Shown: one piece after another, positions 1,651 to 29,541 of the stretch
How positions within the stretch are numbered: the stretch's first letter is position 1
Layout of the letters: each line of letters begins with the position of its first letter
DNA from: Escherichia phage ukendt
Length of the DNA stretch: 64,000 nt
Sequence record: NC_052661.1
Direction: 5' to 3' (one strand)
Position numbers and translations under genes: made by a program
Notes under the pieces: model-generated
Told to the model about the DNA's origin: nothing
Database searches by the model: none
The model's input: the letters and a program-made list of their open reading frames with translations, nothing else

Positions 1651-2160
1651 TTAAACAAAATAAAATGGTTGAGAGAGGCCCAAACGATTCTTTGGGTCGT
1701 ATACATACCAAGCGTATGCTGTCTTATCTGTTCCACCTGCAACAAACGAAGGCCGTTCTGAAAGAACTATAAGGTTTGTCGGTGGATTCTTTTGATGGAA
1801 CTCTCGTCGTTTCTTTGACTCCAAGAAGCCCAACCGAAGAAGATAAATACAAACATCCGCCTCTTTTAAGCTCTTTTCCAAGAACTCCATTGCTAACTTA
1901 AATGGAGGGTTTGTGATTATAATGTCGGGACGATTTTCCCACTCGTGACTAAAATAATCCTTACCTTCTTCAAGTTCACAATATTCTGAACCTTCAGGAA
2001 AATGGCGATAAATCGCTTCAGCTTCACCTCTGCAAGGTTCTGCAAAAACCCAACCTTCTTCCTTTAGATTTTTGAAATCTATAACACTAAACAAACTATT
2101 GATTGCTTTTTGCGGTGTAGGATAATAATCGCTCGTTGGGCGATCATAATCTAATGCCAT
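1651..2160 (-). CDS. putative small DNA N6-adenine methyltransferase (phage Dam-like)
   Basis: motif IIITNPPF (NPPF/DPPY class) in a 169-aa protein; no clear FxGxG motif seen. Confidence 0.45.
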   Translation of the reverse strand: MALDYDRPTSDYYPTPQKAINSLFSVIDFKNLKEEGWVFAEPCRGEAEAIYRHFPEGSEYCELEEGKDYFSHEWENRPDIIITNPPFKLAMEFLEKSLKEADVCIYLLRLGFLESKKRREFHQKNPPTNLIVLSERPSFVAGGTDKTAYAWYVYDPKNRLGLSQPFYFV

Positions 2161-20244: not shown

Positions 20245-20970
20245 TTACTTGTTAATAATACCTGCAATATTAGGTTTGACAAAGGTCGATGGTTTCATGA
20301 TCTTACCTTTATCATCAAAGAACACATACACTTTCTGTTTTTCATTATAAACAGCATGAACACCAGTGTATGCCCCTTCTGGACGATTGGCATTTCGTTC
20401 TTCAATTGCAGCGCATTCTTGTGCAATGGCTGAATCGATATCCGAAGTTTTCCAAGTTTTCAGCAACTGTTGTTTAGTTGGATACTTGGAATCATTACTT
20501 TTCAATACCTCTTTAATAACTTTCTTTTCTGGATATTTTGAACGGATTAGAGTGTCACGAGACATACGCATAATACCAGCAGCCATTAGTGCCATTTGAA
20601 CTGGCTCTGTAAATGTTTGTTCCAAAGCATCAAAATCAGTATACACAGTTGGAGTAAAAACATCGCCTACAGCATAGTCCAAGAAATTCATCGTATGTTC
20701 TTCACCAAAGAACATGTAAGTCAGATAACTGGATACTACAAAAATATCTGCTGCTGCGTCCAAGAGTTCTACATGATCGTTTACTTTCGCGGCTGTTTCA
20801 TACTCTTTAAGTTCTTCACGAACGAATCCGATTTGGGACATAAATAGCTCTTGAGTGAATTCAGGTTGTTCACCACCTCGTGCTTTGGCATTCCAATCAA
20901 TCACGTGCTTTGCTGCATTTTTGAAAAATTCAGTATCGAATTTAATATCTTTAAAAAAATTCTCGATCAT
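20245..20970 (-). CDS. MazG-like nucleoside triphosphate pyrophosphohydrolase domain protein
   Basis: REELKEYETAAK...VELLDAAADIFVV resembles the MazG ExxE...ExxD motif. Confidence 0.45.
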   Translation of the reverse strand: MIENFFKDIKFDTEFFKNAAKHVIDWNAKARGGEQPEFTQELFMSQIGFVREELKEYETAAKVNDHVELLDAAADIFVVSSYLTYMFFGEEHTMNFLDYAVGDVFTPTVYTDFDALEQTFTEPVQMALMAAGIMRMSRDTLIRSKYPEKKVIKEVLKSNDSKYPTKQQLLKTWKTSDIDSAIAQECAAIEERNANRPEGAYTGVHAVYNEKQKVYVFFDDKGKIMKPSTFVKPNIAGIINK

Positions 20971-20979
20971 TATAACTCC

Positions 20980-21162
20980 TTATTTAAAATAGCTTTCTAG
21001 AAAGTTGCTAATATTTACTACAGTCTCACCCATGTAAATTCCTGCGAAACCGAAAACAAGCATACGTGGAATATTGAAATACCATTTATCCGCTGGAAAA
21101 GATGCCAGAATTACAATAGCAATTGCTATCAGCATCATAAGAATTGTTGCTAAAATTATCAT
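20980..21162 (-). CDS. small membrane protein (60 aa)
   Basis: start at internal ATG with SD GGAGG; ATGA overlap with upstream ORF; two hydrophobic segments. Confidence 0.4.
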   Translation of the reverse strand: MIILATILMMLIAIAIVILASFPADKWYFNIPRMLVFGFAGIYMGETVVNISNFLESYFK

Positions 21163-21353
21163 AAAAATGCCTCCAGGTATTTTGAACAATGATAAGCTAA
21201 GAAACAAGAAACTACCGCATACCCAACTCCAGACATACATGAATCAATCACAACACATACGGTTCTTTTCTTTGAATTCTTAGGAAAGTTTTCCGAAGCA
21301 TTCATACAATAAAAAGAAAGCACACTGAAAACAATTAAAATGGCTAAGAACAT
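21159..21353 (-). CDS. small membrane protein (64 aa)
   Basis: hydrophobic N-terminus MFLAILIVFSVLSFY. Confidence 0.4.
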   Translation of the reverse strand: MFLAILIVFSVLSFYCMNASENFPKNSKKRTVCVVIDSCMSGVGYAVVSCFLAYHCSKYLEAFL

Positions 21354-21362
21354 TTTTCCTCC

Positions 21363-22490
21363 TTACTCTGCTGGTTCCCAAGTGCCTGGGATCATTTCTC
21401 GAATACGAACACCAACAGGTTTTGTTGGAATACCTTCATCTGAAAATTCTTCATACTCTATTTCAACGAACTGATTAATCAAGGTAGAAGCATTCTCTGC
21501 TTTACGATAATTGATAGTCTCATGAGCATCTTTACGCATTAAGAATTCGACTACTTTACCATTTTCCATCTCACCTGTCAACACTCCATCACCATTTTTA
21601 TCACTTTTTGAATTTGTTACTTTAACTTCAAGGGTGTGGCGAGGCTTACGTTTAATAACGTCATAAGAACGTTTATCAAATTCGTAAACTCCGTTAGCAT
21701 TACGATATACTACACCTTCAGCTTTCTCAAGTAAAGCTTTTTCATAGAAAGCATCAAACTGTTCTTGGTTTTCAATATACTCTGTATGAACTACGCAAAT
21801 AAGCTCGTCAAGACCATAATCTTCAACTACTGCCTTAAGAGCAGCAAGAACATCAACACGTTTTTCAAACGGTAGATCTGGAACTGGAATATCATATACG
21901 TAATAATTCAGCAAAGGTGTATTTGCATTATGCTTCTTCCAGGCACTGTTAATTTGTTGCAGACTAAGGACACCTAACCCAGCAAACACTTCACCATCAA
22001 GAGGATGACCAACAACTTCACTAATAAAGTTTGGAATACCTTTCCAATGAGGTGGCAGGTTATACACTTCCCCAGCTTTTGATAAACACTCTCCTTTCAT
22101 GTTAATCATAGAACGTAACCCGTTCAGTTTGTATTGTGCATAACCAGGGAACACAACCCTTTCAGGATAATCTTTATAATCCTGGCATTTCATTGGTGTG
22201 GAAGGAACATGGTTTTCAGCTTCTTCTTTTGTTTTATAATAGCCATTCTTTAACTGTTTTGTCCATTTGGCAAAAGCTTCAAGTTCAGCTTGTTCTTCCG
22301 GTGTTGTTTCATTGGAACGACCAATGTTTTTTGCTTCTGCTGTATAAGATTTTTCTGTGATTTTTCCACCTACTCTTCCATGAGCTACAGTAACAACTGC
22401 ACCATCTGTATACACTGTCCACTGTTTAAGTTTTCCTTTTGAATCTTTACCATACAGCGTTTGATTTGTTTGTTGCATCAGTCCTCCCAT
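21363..22490 (-). CDS. ATP-dependent polynucleotide ligase (covalent nucleotidyltransferase; RNA- or DNA-ligase)
   Basis: motif I YKLNGLR (KxNG), motif III LDGEVF, motif IV EGVVYR, motif V DVIKRK; 375 aa. Confidence 0.6.
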   Translation of the reverse strand: MGGLMQQTNQTLYGKDSKGKLKQWTVYTDGAVVTVAHGRVGGKITEKSYTAEAKNIGRSNETTPEEQAELEAFAKWTKQLKNGYYKTKEEAENHVPSTPMKCQDYKDYPERVVFPGYAQYKLNGLRSMINMKGECLSKAGEVYNLPPHWKGIPNFISEVVGHPLDGEVFAGLGVLSLQQINSAWKKHNANTPLLNYYVYDIPVPDLPFEKRVDVLAALKAVVEDYGLDELICVVHTEYIENQEQFDAFYEKALLEKAEGVVYRNANGVYEFDKRSYDVIKRKPRHTLEVKVTNSKSDKNGDGVLTGEMENGKVVEFLMRKDAHETINYRKAENASTLINQFVEIEYEEFSDEGIPTKPVGVRIREMIPGTWEPAE

Positions 22491-27983: not shown

Positions 27984-28290
27984 CTTTAACCACCTCCAAT
28001 TGCCTTTCGAGTTTGACTTTGTTTGAGAACTGATAATGACACAACTTACATTGCATGTCAACAATCTGATCGTGATTTAACCCTACAATTTTAACTTCCT
28101 TTGCACCATCCCATTCCAAATACTCAAAGCCATCCAAATGATTACTCTTGTCCAACAGGAATGCTATCTGCTGCCATTCAATCTGAATATCATTTAAATG
28201 ATATGCTGCACAGAAGATATCCTCATAGTAAAAGACGACCATTGTCATTGCTTCGTCCAGTACAACTACCTCTTGTCTTGTAAATCTCAT
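27967..28290 (-). CDS. hypothetical protein (107 aa), first gene of minus-strand block
   Basis: SD GGAGG before ATG at 28290. Confidence 0.45.
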   Translation of the reverse strand: MRFTRQEVVVLDEAMTMVVFYYEDIFCAAYHLNDIQIEWQQIAFLLDKSNHLDGFEYLEWDGAKEVKIVGLNHDQIVDMQCKLCHYQFSNKVKLERQLEVVKDDSTN

Positions 28291-28334
28291 TCTAGCCTCC
28301 TAAACGCGTCTCTGACGCACTTTTTATATATAAG

Positions 28335-28363
28335 ATGATAAATCACCTTACCTAGTAAGTAAA
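28335..28363 (-). promoter_or_regulatory. candidate early promoter TTTACT-N17-TATCAT (minus strand)
   Basis: read on reverse complement upstream of the 28290 start; a small hairpin (GCGTC-TCT-GACGC, ~28306..28318) lies in the 5'UTR. Confidence 0.35.
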
Positions 28364-28542
28364 CTTGCTCTACGAGCCTCTTATGAAGCTTATGTTATAG
28401 GCTATACTATTGCTACCTGTTTAAGCAAGGTTTTTGCACACAGAAAATAATTTTTAATAAAACTCTTGACTTTTGTGTTCGAAGTATGCTACCCTAGAAA
28501 TCTATTAACGAGCGAAGCGAGTTAAGGTTTTAGGTTGTTGAT

Positions 28543-28656
28543 GTAGTACTCTGTACTCAAGTACTGTACTCCGTACTAGATTAATAATTATTAAATATTA
28601 ATAATAAATAATTATTAGATCTAACAAACAGGTACAGTGTATCAGAACTGGTACGT
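28543..28656. repeat. GTAC(T) direct-repeat cluster flanking a 40-bp A/T-only tract (candidate origin or regulatory hub)
   Basis: five GTACT copies in tagtactctgtactcaagtactgtactccgtactag, then a pure A/T tract, then further GTAC motifs (ggtacagtg...ggtacgtacag). Confidence 0.5.
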
Positions 28657-28711
28657 ACAGATCAACTTCTATCAATTAAAAAATAAAATAATAAATTATT
28701 ATAAATAATAC

Positions 28712-28740
28712 TTGATCTATAGATCAGTATGAAGTATAGT
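28712..28740 (+). promoter_or_regulatory. promoter TTGATC-N17-TATAGT overlapping the palindrome GATCTATAGATC
   Basis: ttgatctatagatcagtatgaagTATAGT; perfect 12-bp palindrome with two GATC sites at 28714..28725. Confidence 0.45.
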
Positions 28741-28772
28741 ACGGAACATCTTAACAAGAATGGAGGTGTGCA

Positions 28773-28958
28773 ATGATTAGTGAGAATCCGTGCAAATGGC
28801 ATCATGTGCCTATTAAAGATTGTATGTCTTGTAATCCACGTTCTATTTATAACATTGCATCTTATGATGATGACAATGTGTTAGACGATGATGAAGGCTG
28901 GGAGGATTTAGATTGGACTGGTTATGAAACCAAAAAGGATAAAATTATTCCTAGTTGA
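28773..28958 (+). CDS. hypothetical Cys-containing protein (61 aa)
   Basis: SD GGAGG before ATG; first plus-strand gene. Confidence 0.5.
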   Translation: MISENPCKWHHVPIKDCMSCNPRSIYNIASYDDDNVLDDDEGWEDLDWTGYETKKDKIIPS

Positions 28959-28995
28959 CTTAAGATATCCTTCGTGCTAAACTAGAAATGAGGAG

Positions 28996-29247
28996 ATGCC
29001 GATCACTCCCCATTTGGGGTTCGAAGGATATATGCAAAATAGCTTTTATTTTAGGTGCCGTGCTTGTAATAGGCATTTGACAAACCACTCCAGACGTGAT
29101 AAAAATGGAGTCATCAAGGAATCAGACCTCTGTTCTATTTGCACAGGTTTGGCTTTTGATGATAGTCCCGAAAGGGTTTATCAGCATCAATGTATAACAG
29201 ACGTTCTCGTGTCAAACTTGGTAGAGGACGAACAACTAACAGATTAG
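28996..29247 (+). CDS. small zinc-finger protein
   Basis: CRACNRH...CSIC; start ambiguous (28996 or ATG 29032 with SD AAGGA). Confidence 0.45.
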   Translation: MPITPHLGFEGYMQNSFYFRCRACNRHLTNHSRRDKNGVIKESDLCSICTGLAFDDSPERVYQHQCITDVLVSNLVEDEQLTD

Positions 29248-29511: not shown

Positions 29512-29541
29512 TTGACAAACGTATCCTTCATATGTTAGGAT
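29512..29541 (+). promoter_or_regulatory. promoter TTGACA-N18-TAGGAT with extended TG
   Basis: ctaTTGACAaacgtatccttcatatgtTAGGAT; upstream of the tRNA array leader. Confidence 0.4.

What the first reader, a model, noticed from the sequence alone, without database searches (positions are those of the whole stretch)
28291..28772. Divergent control region with GTAC iterons, A/T-only tract and a GATC palindrome
The ~480-bp gap between the outward-facing minus- and plus-strand gene blocks holds five GTACT direct repeats at 7-8 bp spacing, a 40-bp tract of pure A/T, further GGTACAG/GGTACGTACAG motifs, and the perfect palindrome GATCTATAGATC overlapping a TTGATC-N17-TATAGT promoter. The combination resembles a replication origin (iterons plus unwinding element) or a regulatory hub; the two GATC sites could make the promoter methylation-sensitive, which is notable given the phage's own Dam-like methyltransferase.
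Basis: seen in the sequence. Interest (0 to 1): 0.55.

Follow-up and report, generated by a model that had tools for sequence, protein, structure and literature searches.

The report
Divergent early-promoter hub with AT palindrome
This non-coding gap in an E. coli phage of the phAPEC8 group is most likely the control region from which two large gene blocks are transcribed in opposite directions; its "GTAC iterons" and A/T tract are the arms and centre of one 130-bp palindrome found only in this phage lineage, and a replication-start role is possible but unproven.

Summary
All the described motifs are present and are far beyond chance. The window is a Phapecoctavirus (phAPEC8-like) genome. The gap lies 54.5 kb from the genome ends, so it is not a terminus.

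Four elements are conserved across Stephanstirmvirinae genera:
- a rightward sigma-70 promoter, TTGACT-N18-TGcTACCCT;
- a promoter-proximal hairpin box, CGAGCG-N-AGCGAG, present three times per genome and in about 30 metagenomic instances;
- an A/T tract directly upstream of a second promoter;
- that second, gene-proximal promoter.

The five GTACT repeats, the 38-bp A/T run and the GGTACAG/GGTACGTACAG motifs are not iterons plus an unwinding element. Together they form one imperfect 130-bp palindrome (28537-28666), inserted only in Phapecoctavirus between the box and a conserved motif, TTAGATCTAACAAACA.

This palindrome folds significantly better than shuffled sequence (z about -3.4). It also contains the least stable duplex of the whole 151-kb genome. 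GTAC is the most avoided tetramer in this phage, yet it is concentrated here.

The GATC palindrome is polymorphic within the genus and absent in other genera.

Best reading: an early-transcription and leader control region (confidence 0.6). A transcription-activated origin of the T4 oriF / T7 type remains a live rival (0.22). An iteron-and-initiator origin and Dam control are poorly supported.

The parts
28288..28300 (-). Start codon (28288-28290) and GGAGG ribosome-binding site (28296-28300) of the first gene of the leftward block (107 aa, PHROG 14390, function unknown).
   Evidence: annotated as a CDS in relatives
28306..28318 (-). GCGTC-TCT-GACGC hairpin in the 5' leader of the leftward mRNA. 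Read on the + strand it looks like a terminator.
   Evidence: terminator-like site; DNA fold z -2.7; invariant in 11 relatives; kept in the phiWec clade
28335..28428 (-). Candidate leftward sigma-70 promoters. P(-)a: TTTACT-N17-TATCAT (28363-28335). P(-)b: TTGCTT-N16-TATAGC (28428-28401).
   Evidence: P(-)a (9 of 12 matches). P(-)b from reading the sequence and from a matching TGcTATAGT promoter at the homologous place in phiWec188. Both are inferred, not mapped.
28444..28462 (+). 19-bp pure A/T run at the UP-element position of P(+)1.
   Evidence: its position relative to the -35 hexamer read
28466..28495 (+). P(+)1: -35 TTGACT (28466-28471), 18-bp spacer, extended -10 TGcTACCCT (28487-28495). 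The start site is expected near 28500-28504.
   Evidence: -35, TG and TACCCTA are invariant across five divergent phages (A2). It is one of three paralogous promoters in the genome.
28505..28525 (+). Promoter-proximal hairpin box: CGAGCG-A-AGCGAG (28509-28521), with TTAAC/GTTAA as an outer stem. The inner stem has tandem G.A pairs and a GNA loop.
   Evidence: The pattern occurs only three times in 151 kb, each 12 nt after a TACCCTA -10. There are 31 instances in promoter context from IMG/VR and metagenomes (about 30 distinct), with loops A, C, AT, AA or GG. Folds.
28522..28536 (+). TTAAGGT / AGGTT short repeats whose copy number varies between relatives.
   Evidence: UP17 and Ro121lw carry 7 extra bases, anhysbys 9 extra bases
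28537..28666 (.). 130-bp imperfect palindrome specific to Phapecoctavirus. The outer stem is GTTGAT/ATCAAC.
   Evidence: RNA MFE -34.5 kcal/mol, z -3.3. DNA z -3.6. The same long hairpin is predicted in 10 relatives. About the 10th most structured locus of the genome. Most of its left arm and apex fall in a gap in the other genera (A2).
28546..28577 (.).
   Evidence: absent from phiWec, KP13-26, L048 and L113
28577..28623 (.). A/T-rich palindrome at the apex of the long palindrome. It contains the 38-bp pure A/T run (28580-28617) and is flanked by TAGAT(C)TA words.
   Evidence: the repeat finder I2: 18-nt arms, 89% complementary. DNA hairpin z -4.2. Least stable 40- and 60-bp duplex of the genome. 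UP17 carries an insertion that makes the flank a perfect palindrome.
28615..28630 (+). TTAGATCTAACAAACA, a conserved leader motif that contains the GATC at 28618.
   Evidence: Invariant in 10 of 11 sampled relatives; UP17 has one substitution. Identical or one base different in the metagenomic leaders L048 and L113. TAGATCTA words are associated with all three promoter+box modules.
28631..28660 (.). GGTACAG and GGTACGTACAG words, forming the right arm of the palindrome. They pair with the GTACT array.
28674..28710 (+). Second pure A/T run (37 bp), directly upstream of P(+)2. Proposed to act like an UP element or curved DNA.
   Evidence: An A/T-rich tract sits at the same place in phiWec, KP13-26, L048 and L113. 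Its length varies within the genus.
28712..28740 (+). P(+)2: TTGATC-N17-TATAGT, overlapping GATCTATAGATC (28714-28725). Most relatives have TACAGT as the -10.
   Evidence: 9 of 12 matches. The TTGA of the -35 is invariant across genera. The second GATC is lost in 5 of 11 relatives.
28762..28775 (+). GGAGG ribosome-binding site (28762-28766) and ATG (28773) of the first gene of the rightward block. The block runs from a 61-aa protein of unknown function through two more small ORFs, 10 tRNA genes and the terminase gene to the structural genes.

Best explanation
This is the main divergent early-transcription control region of a Phapecoctavirus genome.

Shown:
- Two gene blocks, about 36 kb leftward and about 40 kb rightward, start here.
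- The rightward promoter P(+)1 (TTGACT-N18-TGcTACCCT, with an A/T run at the UP position) is followed 12 nt later by a small hairpin box, CGAGCG-N-AGCGAG.
- This promoter+box module occurs three times per genome and is conserved across Stephanstirmvirinae genera and in metagenomic phages.
- A second promoter, P(+)2, sits 30 bp upstream of the first gene. An A/T tract directly upstream of it is also conserved across genera.
- Between the box and a conserved motif (TTAGATCTAACAAACA), Phapecoctavirus alone carries a 130-bp imperfect palindrome. The 'GTACT iterons' are its left arm, the GGTACAG/GGTACGTACAG words its right arm, and the 38-bp A/T run its apex.

Inferred:
- Host sigma-70 RNA polymerase fires from P(+)1 and from the leftward promoter(s) at infection.
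- The P(+)1 transcript begins with the box hairpin, a cis element read by a host or phage factor or acting as a 5'-end stabiliser.
- The transcript then folds the palindrome into one long AU-rich hairpin within a leader of about 270 nt.
- That hairpin could act as a processing, attenuation or stability element that sets how much P(+)1 transcription reaches the small ORFs, the tRNA cluster and the late genes.
- The two other A/T tracts work as UP-like elements.
- The GATC palindrome is an incidental, non-conserved part of the P(+)2 spacer.
For: Genome position: it is a strand-switch point, 54.5 kb from the 329-bp terminal repeat.

Conserved promoter elements: the P(+)1 -35, the TG, TACCCTA, the box, the P(+)2 -35 and the ribosome-binding site are the invariant blocks in an alignment of five divergent phages with 62% mean identity (A2).

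The promoter+box module:
- There are three paralogous modules per genome, and the box pattern is found nowhere else in 151 kb.
- There are 31 promoter-context instances elsewhere (about 30 distinct). Variation is confined to a G..A-closed loop, as expected for a hairpin.

The palindrome:
- All the odd motifs lie inside the predicted leader, and no ORF is present.
- The segment folds as a single hairpin better than shuffled sequence: RNA z -3.3, DNA z -3.6, whole leader z -3.4.
- The same fold is predicted in 10 relatives.
- Most of the left arm and apex, including the whole GTACT array, fall in a gap in the other clades and genera.
- The other two modules are also followed by larger hairpins, and module C ranks among the most structured loci of the genome.

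A/T tracts: tracts 0 and 2 end 2-4 bp before the -35 hexamers.

Precedent: the related phage rV5 is reported to have bidirectional promoters at such a junction (PMC3606486).
Against: - No transcription start has been mapped, and no transcriptome for this phage group was found.
- The generic promoter scan finds no more sites in this stretch than in shuffled sequence (9 found against 8.3 expected). The promoter calls therefore rest on conservation, not on the scan.
- The RNA-level role of the palindrome is inferred from folding alone.
- The phiWec leader, which lacks the palindrome, does not fold significantly (z -1.6), so a long hairpin is not a conserved requirement.
- A control-region reading does not explain why GTAC, the most avoided tetramer, is used to build the arms.
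- It also does not explain why the apex is the least stable DNA of the genome. That fact fits an origin at least as well.
Confidence: 0.6

Rival explanations
1. Transcription-activated replication origin of the T4 oriF/oriG or T7 primary-origin type. Transcription from P(+)1 runs into the A/T palindrome about 80 bp downstream. The DNA opens there as an R-loop or cruciform, and the phage primase-helicase and polymerase start bidirectional synthesis. This could coexist with the promoter function.
For: - The region has the least stable 40-, 60- and 200-bp duplex windows of the whole 151-kb genome, and the longest pure A/T run.
- It lies downstream of a strong, conserved promoter.
- It sits at a strand-switch point and at a local minimum of cumulative GC skew, so forks leaving it would move in the same direction as transcription of both blocks.
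- The phage encodes a DnaB-like primase/helicase, a DNA polymerase, a ligase, and RdgC-like and UvrD-like proteins, but no annotated origin-binding initiator.
Against: - GC skew follows gene orientation at all four switch points, so it says nothing about replication. The same conclusion was drawn for rV5.
- The A/T palindrome and GTAC arms are absent from the sister clade and from other genera, which keep the promoters. An essential origin would then have to lie elsewhere, or look different, in close relatives.
- The terminal repeat is equally A/T-rich at the 100-bp scale.
- No replication data exist for this phage group.
Confidence: 0.22
2. Iteron-type origin. A phage initiator binds the five GTACT repeats and melts the adjacent A/T tract, as at lambda ori or at plasmid and oriC origins.
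For: There are direct repeats next to an A/T-only tract. One relaxed DnaA-box match lies at 28432.
Against: - The repeats are 5 bp long and spaced 7, 8, 5, 7. From established knowledge, iterons are about 17-22 bp and are phased with the helix.
- They are better explained as one arm of a palindrome.
- They are missing in relatives that keep everything around them.
- The adjacent proteins are PHROG families of unknown function with no replication or DNA-binding domain.
- DnaA-box density is at background, and no IHF, Fis or 13-mer sites are found.
Confidence: 0.04
3. The GTAC words are protein or enzyme targets at the DNA level. One possibility is an operator array for a small phage repressor that binds short tandem sites, in the manner of MetJ or omega. 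Another is a cluster of sites for a lineage-specific GTAC-modifying enzyme, so that the methylation state sets promoter or origin activity.
For: - GTAC is the most avoided tetramer in this lineage only: O/E 0.32, against 0.90 in an E. coli sample and no avoidance in Klebsiella-phage relatives. The same lineage carries the cluster.
- In Schickermooser all 9 GTACs of the region are kept, while 11 of 43 elsewhere differ.
- GTAC sites change mostly to ATAC or GTAT between relatives.
- A nanopore-only assembly loses 55% of them, as would be expected for a modified motif.
- The phage has three putative DNA methyltransferases of unknown specificity.
Against: - No GTAC-specific enzyme or repressor has been identified.
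- The 0-of-9 against 11-of-43 contrast is not significant on its own.
- KKP 3954 and BI-EHEC lose most of the array's GTACs. Those could be sequencing errors, or they could show that the sites are dispensable.
- phAPEC8 has lost one site and dw-ec lacks two repeats.
Confidence: 0.1
4. Largely neutral spacer. Slippage and an inverted duplication in a tolerant non-coding leader produced the repeats and the palindrome, and they have no function of their own.
For: - The leader is plastic in copy number within the genus: TTAAGGT and AAGGTTTTA duplications, A/T tract 2 varying by -8 to +11 bp, and a 14-bp loss of two repeat units in dw-ec.
- The element is lineage-specific.
Against: - The array and the A/T palindrome are at least 99% identical to the window in 34 of 63 records and at least 95% identical in 56, although overall divergence within the genus is low.
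- A tenfold local excess of the genome's most avoided word is hard to keep neutrally.
- UP17's insertion improves the palindrome rather than degrading it.
Confidence: 0.08
5. Dam-methylation-sensitive promoter. The two GATCs in P(+)2 make it respond to the methylation state of incoming versus newly replicated DNA.
For: GATC overlaps the -35 hexamer and lies in the spacer. Four GATCs within 110 bp is unique in the window. The phiWec clade and L113 also have a GATC in the P(+)2 spacer.
Against: - The second GATC is GATT or AATC in 5 of 11 relatives.
- KP13-26 and L048 have no GATC at P(+)2.
- Genome-wide GATC is at expectation.
- No Dam-family methylase was found.
Confidence: 0.06

Closest known systems
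Bidirectional early promoter regions of rV5-like and related large coliphages (rV5 genes 10/11 junction, PMC3606486)
   Same: A strand-switch gap carries back-to-back sigma-70 promoters, several with extended -10 elements. GC and AT skew change sign there because transcription changes direction.
   Different: Here the rightward leader is about 270 nt long. It carries a conserved hairpin box and a lineage-specific 130-bp palindrome, neither of which has been described for rV5.
Lambda PL-nutL-N leader and T7 early leader (A promoters, then RNase III site R0.3); from established knowledge
   Same: A strong early promoter is followed by a small conserved hairpin near the 5' end, then by a long imperfect hairpin before the first gene.
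   Different: There is no sequence similarity to boxA/boxB or to T7 RNase III sites. No N-like or put-like factor has been identified, and processing is untested. The likeness of TTAGATCTAACAAACA to rrn boxA is a recollection only; the only match found in the region (3 mismatches, minus strand) lies elsewhere.
T4 oriF(uvsY)/oriG and the T7 primary origin (promoter plus downstream A/T-rich unwinding element); from established knowledge
   Same: A promoter is followed within about 100 bp by the most easily melted DNA of the genome. No dedicated initiator gene is evident.
   Different: The promoter is a host sigma-70 early promoter, not a MotA-dependent or phage-polymerase promoter. The A/T element is a palindrome and is missing in sister clades. 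No replication data exist.
Lambda ori, plasmid and oriC-type origins (iterons plus A/T-rich DUE); from established knowledge
   Same: Direct repeats lie next to an A/T-only tract, and GATC sites are nearby.
   Different: The repeat unit is 5 bp with 5-8 bp spacing. No initiator gene is present. There is no excess of DnaA or IHF sites and there are no 13-mers. The repeats pair with a downstream arm.
Operator arrays of ribbon-helix-helix repressors (MetJ 8-bp metboxes, omega 7-bp heptads); from established knowledge
   Same: Short words with a palindromic core are repeated every 7-8 bp next to promoters.
   Different: One spacing is 5 bp. No such repressor has been identified, and the array lies 45-75 nt downstream of the predicted start site rather than over a promoter.

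Membership tests
Divergent sigma-70 promoter / leader control region | It lies between outward-facing gene blocks and contains no coding sequence. | tested here: met
Divergent sigma-70 promoter / leader control region | It has -35 and -10 elements with proper spacing that are conserved more strongly than their surroundings. | tested here: met
   For P(+)1 and P(+)2, the hexamer cores are invariant in A2 at 62% mean identity. The leftward promoters are only consensus matches.
Divergent sigma-70 promoter / leader control region | Transcription start sites have been mapped. | not testable with these tools
   No transcriptome or 5'-end data for this phage group were found.
Iteron-type replication origin (lambda ori / plasmid / oriC) | It has an array of helically phased iterons of about 17-22 bp, bound by an initiator. 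| tested here: not met
   The words are 5 bp long, spaced 7, 8, 5, 7. They form one arm of a palindrome.
Iteron-type replication origin (lambda ori / plasmid / oriC) | An initiator gene is adjacent or contains the origin, and host-factor sites (DnaA, IHF) are present. | tested here: not met
   The flanking proteins are PHROG families of unknown function with no Pfam domain. One relaxed DnaA box is at background level, and there are no IHF, Fis or 13-mer matches.
Iteron-type replication origin (lambda ori / plasmid / oriC) | The repeats are conserved in relatives that share the locus. | tested here: not met
   They are absent in phiWec188/179, KP13-26, L048 and L113.
Promoter + DUE origin (T4 oriF/oriG, T7 primary origin) | A promoter directs transcription into an easily unwound A/T-rich element within about 100 bp. 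| tested here: met
   The -10 of P(+)1 ends at 28495 and the A/T run spans 28580-28617. This is the least stable 40- and 60-bp duplex of the genome.
Promoter + DUE origin (T4 oriF/oriG, T7 primary origin) | Replication actually initiates at the site. | not testable with these tools
   GC skew only follows transcription. No marker-frequency data are available.
Dam-regulated promoter | GATC in the promoter core is conserved among relatives. | tested here: not met
   The second GATC is lost in 5 of 11 relatives. There is no GATC at P(+)2 in KP13-26 or L048.
Genome terminus / terminal repeat / pac site | It coincides with the physical ends of the packaged genome. | tested here: not met
   Schickermooser has a 329-bp exact terminal repeat at its record ends, and the region lies at 54.5 kb.
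Any described RNA family (Rfam 15) | A covariance-model match is found at a permissive threshold. | tested here: not met
   Only a tRNA and chance snoRNA hits appear outside the region. Nothing is found in 28291-28772.

The most novel reading that the evidence does not exclude
The 130-bp palindrome, with GTAC-rich arms and an A/T centre, is a lineage-specific switch read through DNA modification. Phapecoctavirus DNA would be modified at GTAC by one of its three uncharacterised methyltransferases. That would explain the extreme GTAC avoidance, the GTAC-to-GTAT/ATAC decay and the GTAC miscalls in a nanopore-only assembly. The cluster of 8-10 GTACs around the genome's most meltable DNA would then couple origin firing, or read-through from the early promoter, to the modification state of incoming versus newly made DNA. 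Separately, the conserved promoter-proximal box would be a new cis element of the nut or put type for processive transcription of a tRNA-rich operon.
Probability: 0.1. Interest if true: 0.75.

Novelty: new variant of a known kind. Interest (0 to 1): 0.42.

Why it matters
Phapecoctaviruses are widely isolated therapeutic candidates, with more than 60 near-identical genomes on record. Even so, their transcription programme, replication origin and DNA modifications are uncharacterised.

This analysis turns a list of curious motifs into a testable map:
- two conserved promoters;
- a promoter-proximal hairpin box shared across a phage subfamily and absent from Rfam;
- one lineage-specific palindrome that is both the most meltable DNA of the genome and a hotspot of its most avoided tetramer.

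It also gives precise targets for start-site mapping, for deletion analysis and for testing whether GTAC is modified. The last point bears on restriction evasion and on the accuracy of nanopore-only phage assemblies.

Tried and rejected
1. Genome end, terminal repeat or pac site: rejected. The 329-bp terminal repeat of Schickermooser lies 54.5 kb away.

2. GC skew as origin evidence: rejected as uninformative. Minima and maxima fall at all four strand switches.

3. The 'natural 67-bp deletion' in phage nieznany as proof that the right arm is dispensable: rejected. The record's two ends overlap inside this region, and the other copy is intact, so this is an assembly artefact.

4. BI-EHEC and KKP 3954 substitutions as proof that the GTACT words are dispensable or covary: not used. 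BI-EHEC is a nanopore-only assembly and loses 55% of GTACs genome-wide. The apparent G-C to A-U compensation in the arms would arise automatically from such errors.

5. Known RNA family: none.

6. Small ORF in the leader: none credible.

7. A regulator encoded next to the region: the flanking proteins are all of unknown function.

8. GTACAGT as a phage-specific promoter word: rejected. There are only 8 sites, 3 of them in this region.

9. DnaA, IHF, Fis, 13-mer and boxA scans: at background or absent.

10. The first two IMG/VR pattern scans returned nothing because I mis-counted the spacers. The corrected pattern worked. About two thirds of the metagenome matches lacked promoter context and were discarded as probable chance hits.

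11. A conserved long hairpin in the phiWec leader: not found (z -1.6).
Full report
**Identity and context.** The window is a member of the genus Phapecoctavirus (phAPEC8-like myophages of E. coli, subfamily Stephanstirmvirinae). A total of 63 GenBank phage records match 28291-28772, 60 of them at 95-99% identity. The 482-bp gap separates two blocks. The leftward block starts at 28290 and holds small ORFs followed by RNA ligase, polynucleotide kinase, DNA ligase and nucleotide-metabolism genes. The rightward block starts at 28773 and holds three small ORFs, ten tRNA genes, the terminase gene and structural genes.

I assembled the whole genome of the relative Schickermooser. Its record ends carry a 329-bp exact direct repeat, matching the published 328-bp terminal repeat (PMC6563267). 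The region lies 54.5 kb inside the genome, so it is not a genome end or a packaging site. The genome has five co-oriented blocks and two divergent junctions. This one is 477 bp in Schickermooser. The other is only 117 bp.

**Check of the observation.** Every motif is present:
- GTACT lies at 28546, 28553, 28561, 28566 and 28573, spaced 7, 8, 5, 7.
- A pure A/T run of 38 bp spans 28580-28617. Further runs of 37 bp (28674-28710) and 19 bp (28444-28462) are also present.
- GGTACAG and GGTACGTACAG lie at 28631-28637 and 28650-28660.
- GATCTATAGATC lies at 28714-28725, inside TTGATC-N17-TATAGT.

These features are not chance:
- GTAC is the most under-represented of all 256 tetramers. Its O/E is 0.34 in the window and 0.32 in the whole genome, against 0.90 in a 50-kb E. 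coli K-12 sample.
- Nine of the window's 64 GTACs lie within 200 bp here.
- No other place in 151 kb reaches 5 GTACs per 120 bp.
- The 38-bp run is the longest A/T run of the genome.

**What is conserved.** I compared the window with the sister clade (phiWec188/179, PsgM04F; about 76% identity), with Klebsiella phage KP13-26 from another genus of the subfamily, and with two metagenomic relatives. The resulting alignment is A2. The invariant blocks are:
- the -35 TTGAC, the TG and the TACCCTA of a rightward promoter, P(+)1 (window 28466-28495);
- the sequence CGAGCG-N-AGCGAG, 12 nt downstream of that promoter;
- the TTGA of a second promoter, P(+)2 (28712-28740);
- the ribosome-binding site and the ATG.

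An A/T-rich tract directly upstream of P(+)2 is present in all five sequences. In the other four sequences, most of the palindrome's left arm and apex is unaligned, with the whole GTACT array in a gap. The array and the 38-bp A/T run are therefore specific to Phapecoctavirus in the strict sense.

**A promoter+box family.** I scanned the Schickermooser genome for extended -10 promoters. P(+)1 has two paralogues, on the minus strand at 128649 and 15108. They share TTGACTTTT, TGnTACCCTA and the box. The box pattern occurs only at these three places in 151 kb. The three highest densities of the word TAGAT in the genome fall in or just downstream of the transcribed regions that follow these three promoters. 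Four of the nine TAGATCTA palindromes of the genome lie within 350 bp of them.

A corrected pattern scan found the module in several distinct IMG/VR contigs of about 150 kb and in metagenomes. After filtering for promoter context, 31 instances remain (about 30 distinct). They have identical stems, and their loops are A, C, AT, AA or GG. Variation confined to a loop that always opens with G and closes with A fits a small hairpin (C-G, tandem G.A, G-C, C-G, then a GNA or GNNA loop) at about +8 to +22 of the transcript. In most instances a larger, variable hairpin follows it. Rfam has nothing at this position. This module is the strongest evidence that the core of the region is a transcription unit with a specific cis element.

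**What the 'iterons' and the A/T tract are.** The segment 28537-28666 is one imperfect palindrome. Its outer stem is GTTGAT/ATCAAC. The GTACT array pairs with the GGTACAG and GGTACGTACAG words. The A/T run is itself a palindrome of about 46 bp, flanked by TAGAT(C)TA, and forms the apex.
- It folds better than dinucleotide shuffles as RNA (z -3.3) and as DNA (z -3.6).
- In a genome-wide scan of 8,633 windows it ranks as about the tenth most structured locus after correction for G+C.
- The right arm runs into TTAGATCTAACAAACA (28615-28630). This motif is identical, or differs by one base, in the metagenomic leaders L048 and L113, where it lies only 25 nt after the box. The palindrome therefore looks like an insertion or inverted duplication between two conserved elements.
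- By nearest-neighbour energies, the region contains the least stable 40-, 60- and 200-bp duplex windows of the genome. At 100 bp the terminal repeat is slightly less stable.

**Variation within the genus.** Over 28500-28640, 34 of 63 records are at least 99% identical and 56 are at least 95% identical. Indels concentrate in the short AGGTT repeats and in A/T tract 2.

The GATC palindrome is not conserved. The second GATC is GATT in Schickermooser, UP17, KKP 3954 and nieznany, and AATC in phAPEC8. Other genera lack GATC at this promoter or place it differently.

Two pieces of apparent evidence had to be discarded:
- The 67-bp 'deletion' in nieznany is an assembly-end artefact.
- The many GTAC-to-ATAC/GTAT changes in BI-EHEC come from a nanopore-only assembly that loses 55% of all alignable GTACs, while no other tetramer exceeds 24%.

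**Tests of the origin idea.**
- Cumulative GC skew has minima at both divergent junctions and maxima at both convergent ones, so it only tracks transcription. The same was reported for rV5.
- The flanking proteins are of unknown function.
- There is one relaxed DnaA box, at background density, and no IHF, Fis or 13-mer matches.
- The words are too short and too irregularly spaced for iterons.
- An iteron-and-initiator origin is therefore poorly supported.
- A promoter-plus-DUE origin, as at T4 oriF/oriG or the T7 primary origin, fits the physical facts: a strong promoter, the most meltable DNA about 80 bp downstream, and no initiator gene. It cannot be excluded. Its main weakness is that the A/T palindrome is missing in close relatives that keep the promoters.

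**Most likely mechanism.** The following is inferred except where a call is cited.
- Host RNA polymerase starts at P(+)1 and at leftward promoter(s). The leftward candidates are TTTACT-N17-TATCAT at 28363-28335 and TTGCTT-N16-TATAGC at 28428-28401, which has a homologue in phiWec.
- The 19-bp and 37-bp A/T runs sit at UP-element positions of P(+)1 and P(+)2.
- The P(+)1 transcript opens with the conserved box hairpin. It then forms the long AU-rich hairpin within a leader of about 270 nt.
- That hairpin would be a substrate for processing, attenuation or stability control of read-through into the small ORFs, the untranslated tRNA cluster and the late genes.
- P(+)2 gives a short-leader transcript.
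- I put 0.6 on this control-region reading, 0.22 on an origin of the promoter-plus-DUE type (the two are not mutually exclusive), and small values on the other rivals.

**Comparison with known systems and novelty.**
- In what it is, the region is closest to the bidirectional early-promoter junctions described for rV5-like phages.
- In how it may work, it is closest to early leaders that combine a small 5' hairpin with a long hairpin (lambda PL-nutL-N, T7 A promoters-R0.3). Those likenesses are functional analogies, not sequence relationships.
- No paper on this region, on transcription starts or on the origin of this phage group was found.
- I rate it a new variant of a known kind, of moderate interest. 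The GTAC paradox and the unassigned box are the parts most worth an experiment.

Noticed in passing
whole window; relatives L015 (BI-EHEC), L023 (KKP 3954), Schickermooser L016-L019: GTAC is the most avoided tetramer of this phage (O/E 0.32-0.34). It is not avoided in an E. coli K-12 sample (0.90) or in Klebsiella-phage relatives (3.3-4.3 sites per kb). GTAC is also among the most frequently changed tetramers between close relatives, mostly to ATAC or GTAT. A nanopore-only assembly (BI-EHEC) loses 24 of 44 sites. This suggests restriction avoidance, or a modified and hypermutable GTAC.
   Followed up: partly
window 28466-28525; Schickermooser 128649(-) and 15108(-); loci L024-L031, L037-L128: A conserved promoter+box module: TTGACTTTT..TGnTACCCTA, 11-13 nt, then CGAGCG-(A/C/AT/AA/GG)-AGCGAG. 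It occurs three times per genome and in 31 promoter-context instances (about 30 distinct) from IMG/VR and metagenomes. Larger hairpins usually follow it. It is not in Rfam.
   Followed up: partly
window 28615-28630; L048 and L113: TTAGATCTAACA[A/G]ACA is shared, with at most one change, between this leader and those of divergent metagenomic phages. L048 carries a second copy, AGATCTAACATACA. TAGATCTA palindromes cluster downstream of all three promoter+box modules.
   Followed up: partly
window 1651-2160 (-); Schickermooser 20767-21450 (-) and 100304-101098 (-): There are three putative DNA methyltransferases of unknown specificity. One is a 169-aa ORF with an NPPF motif in the window. One is a 264-aa NPPF protein next to the DNA polymerase gene. 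One is a 227-aa protein with an FPPC motif (PHROG 757). None reaches a Pfam threshold, and none is of the Dam family.
   Followed up: partly
Schickermooser 138-147 kb (outside the window): A second promoter class: about ten TTGACA-N16-TGaTAAGAT promoters, each followed at about +10 by a conserved GC hairpin of the form GTAGGGCGG..CCGCC, placed in front of small early genes.
   Followed up: no
Schickermooser about 150530-150670 (-), just inside the right terminal repeat: This is the most stable 140-nt fold of the whole genome: -64.6 kcal/mol, about 7 SD below the G+C-corrected mean.
   Followed up: no
window 28522-28536: Copy number of the short TTAAGGT / AAGGTTTTA repeats varies between relatives. 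UP17 and Ro121lw carry 7 extra bases, and anhysbys 9.
   Followed up: yes
MN850598.1 (nieznany) record ends; L006 and L021: The two ends of this linear record overlap inside the region studied. One copy carries a 67-bp deletion (window 28637-28703) and the other is intact, so this is an assembly break or collapse at the A/T- and GTAC-rich repeats.
   Followed up: yes
window 28955-28983, 29077-29106, 29512-29541: Further strong sigma-70 promoters, two with extended -10 elements, lie in tandem between the small ORFs upstream of the tRNA cluster. TTGACT-N17-TGcTAAACTAGAAAT at 28955 shares the CTAGAAAT tail with P(+)1.
   Followed up: no
L003/L005 1897-2109 (phiWec clade): The sister clade has an extra 71-aa gene on the leftward strand, between the 107-aa gene and the control region. 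The GCGTC..GACGC hairpin then lies between two genes rather than in a 5' leader.
   Followed up: no
window 28515 and 28737: The window differs from the genus consensus at two functional-looking positions. The loop of the box is A where most relatives have C. The -10 of P(+)2 is TATAGT where most have TACAGT; this is closer to the consensus and removes one GTAC.
   Followed up: yes
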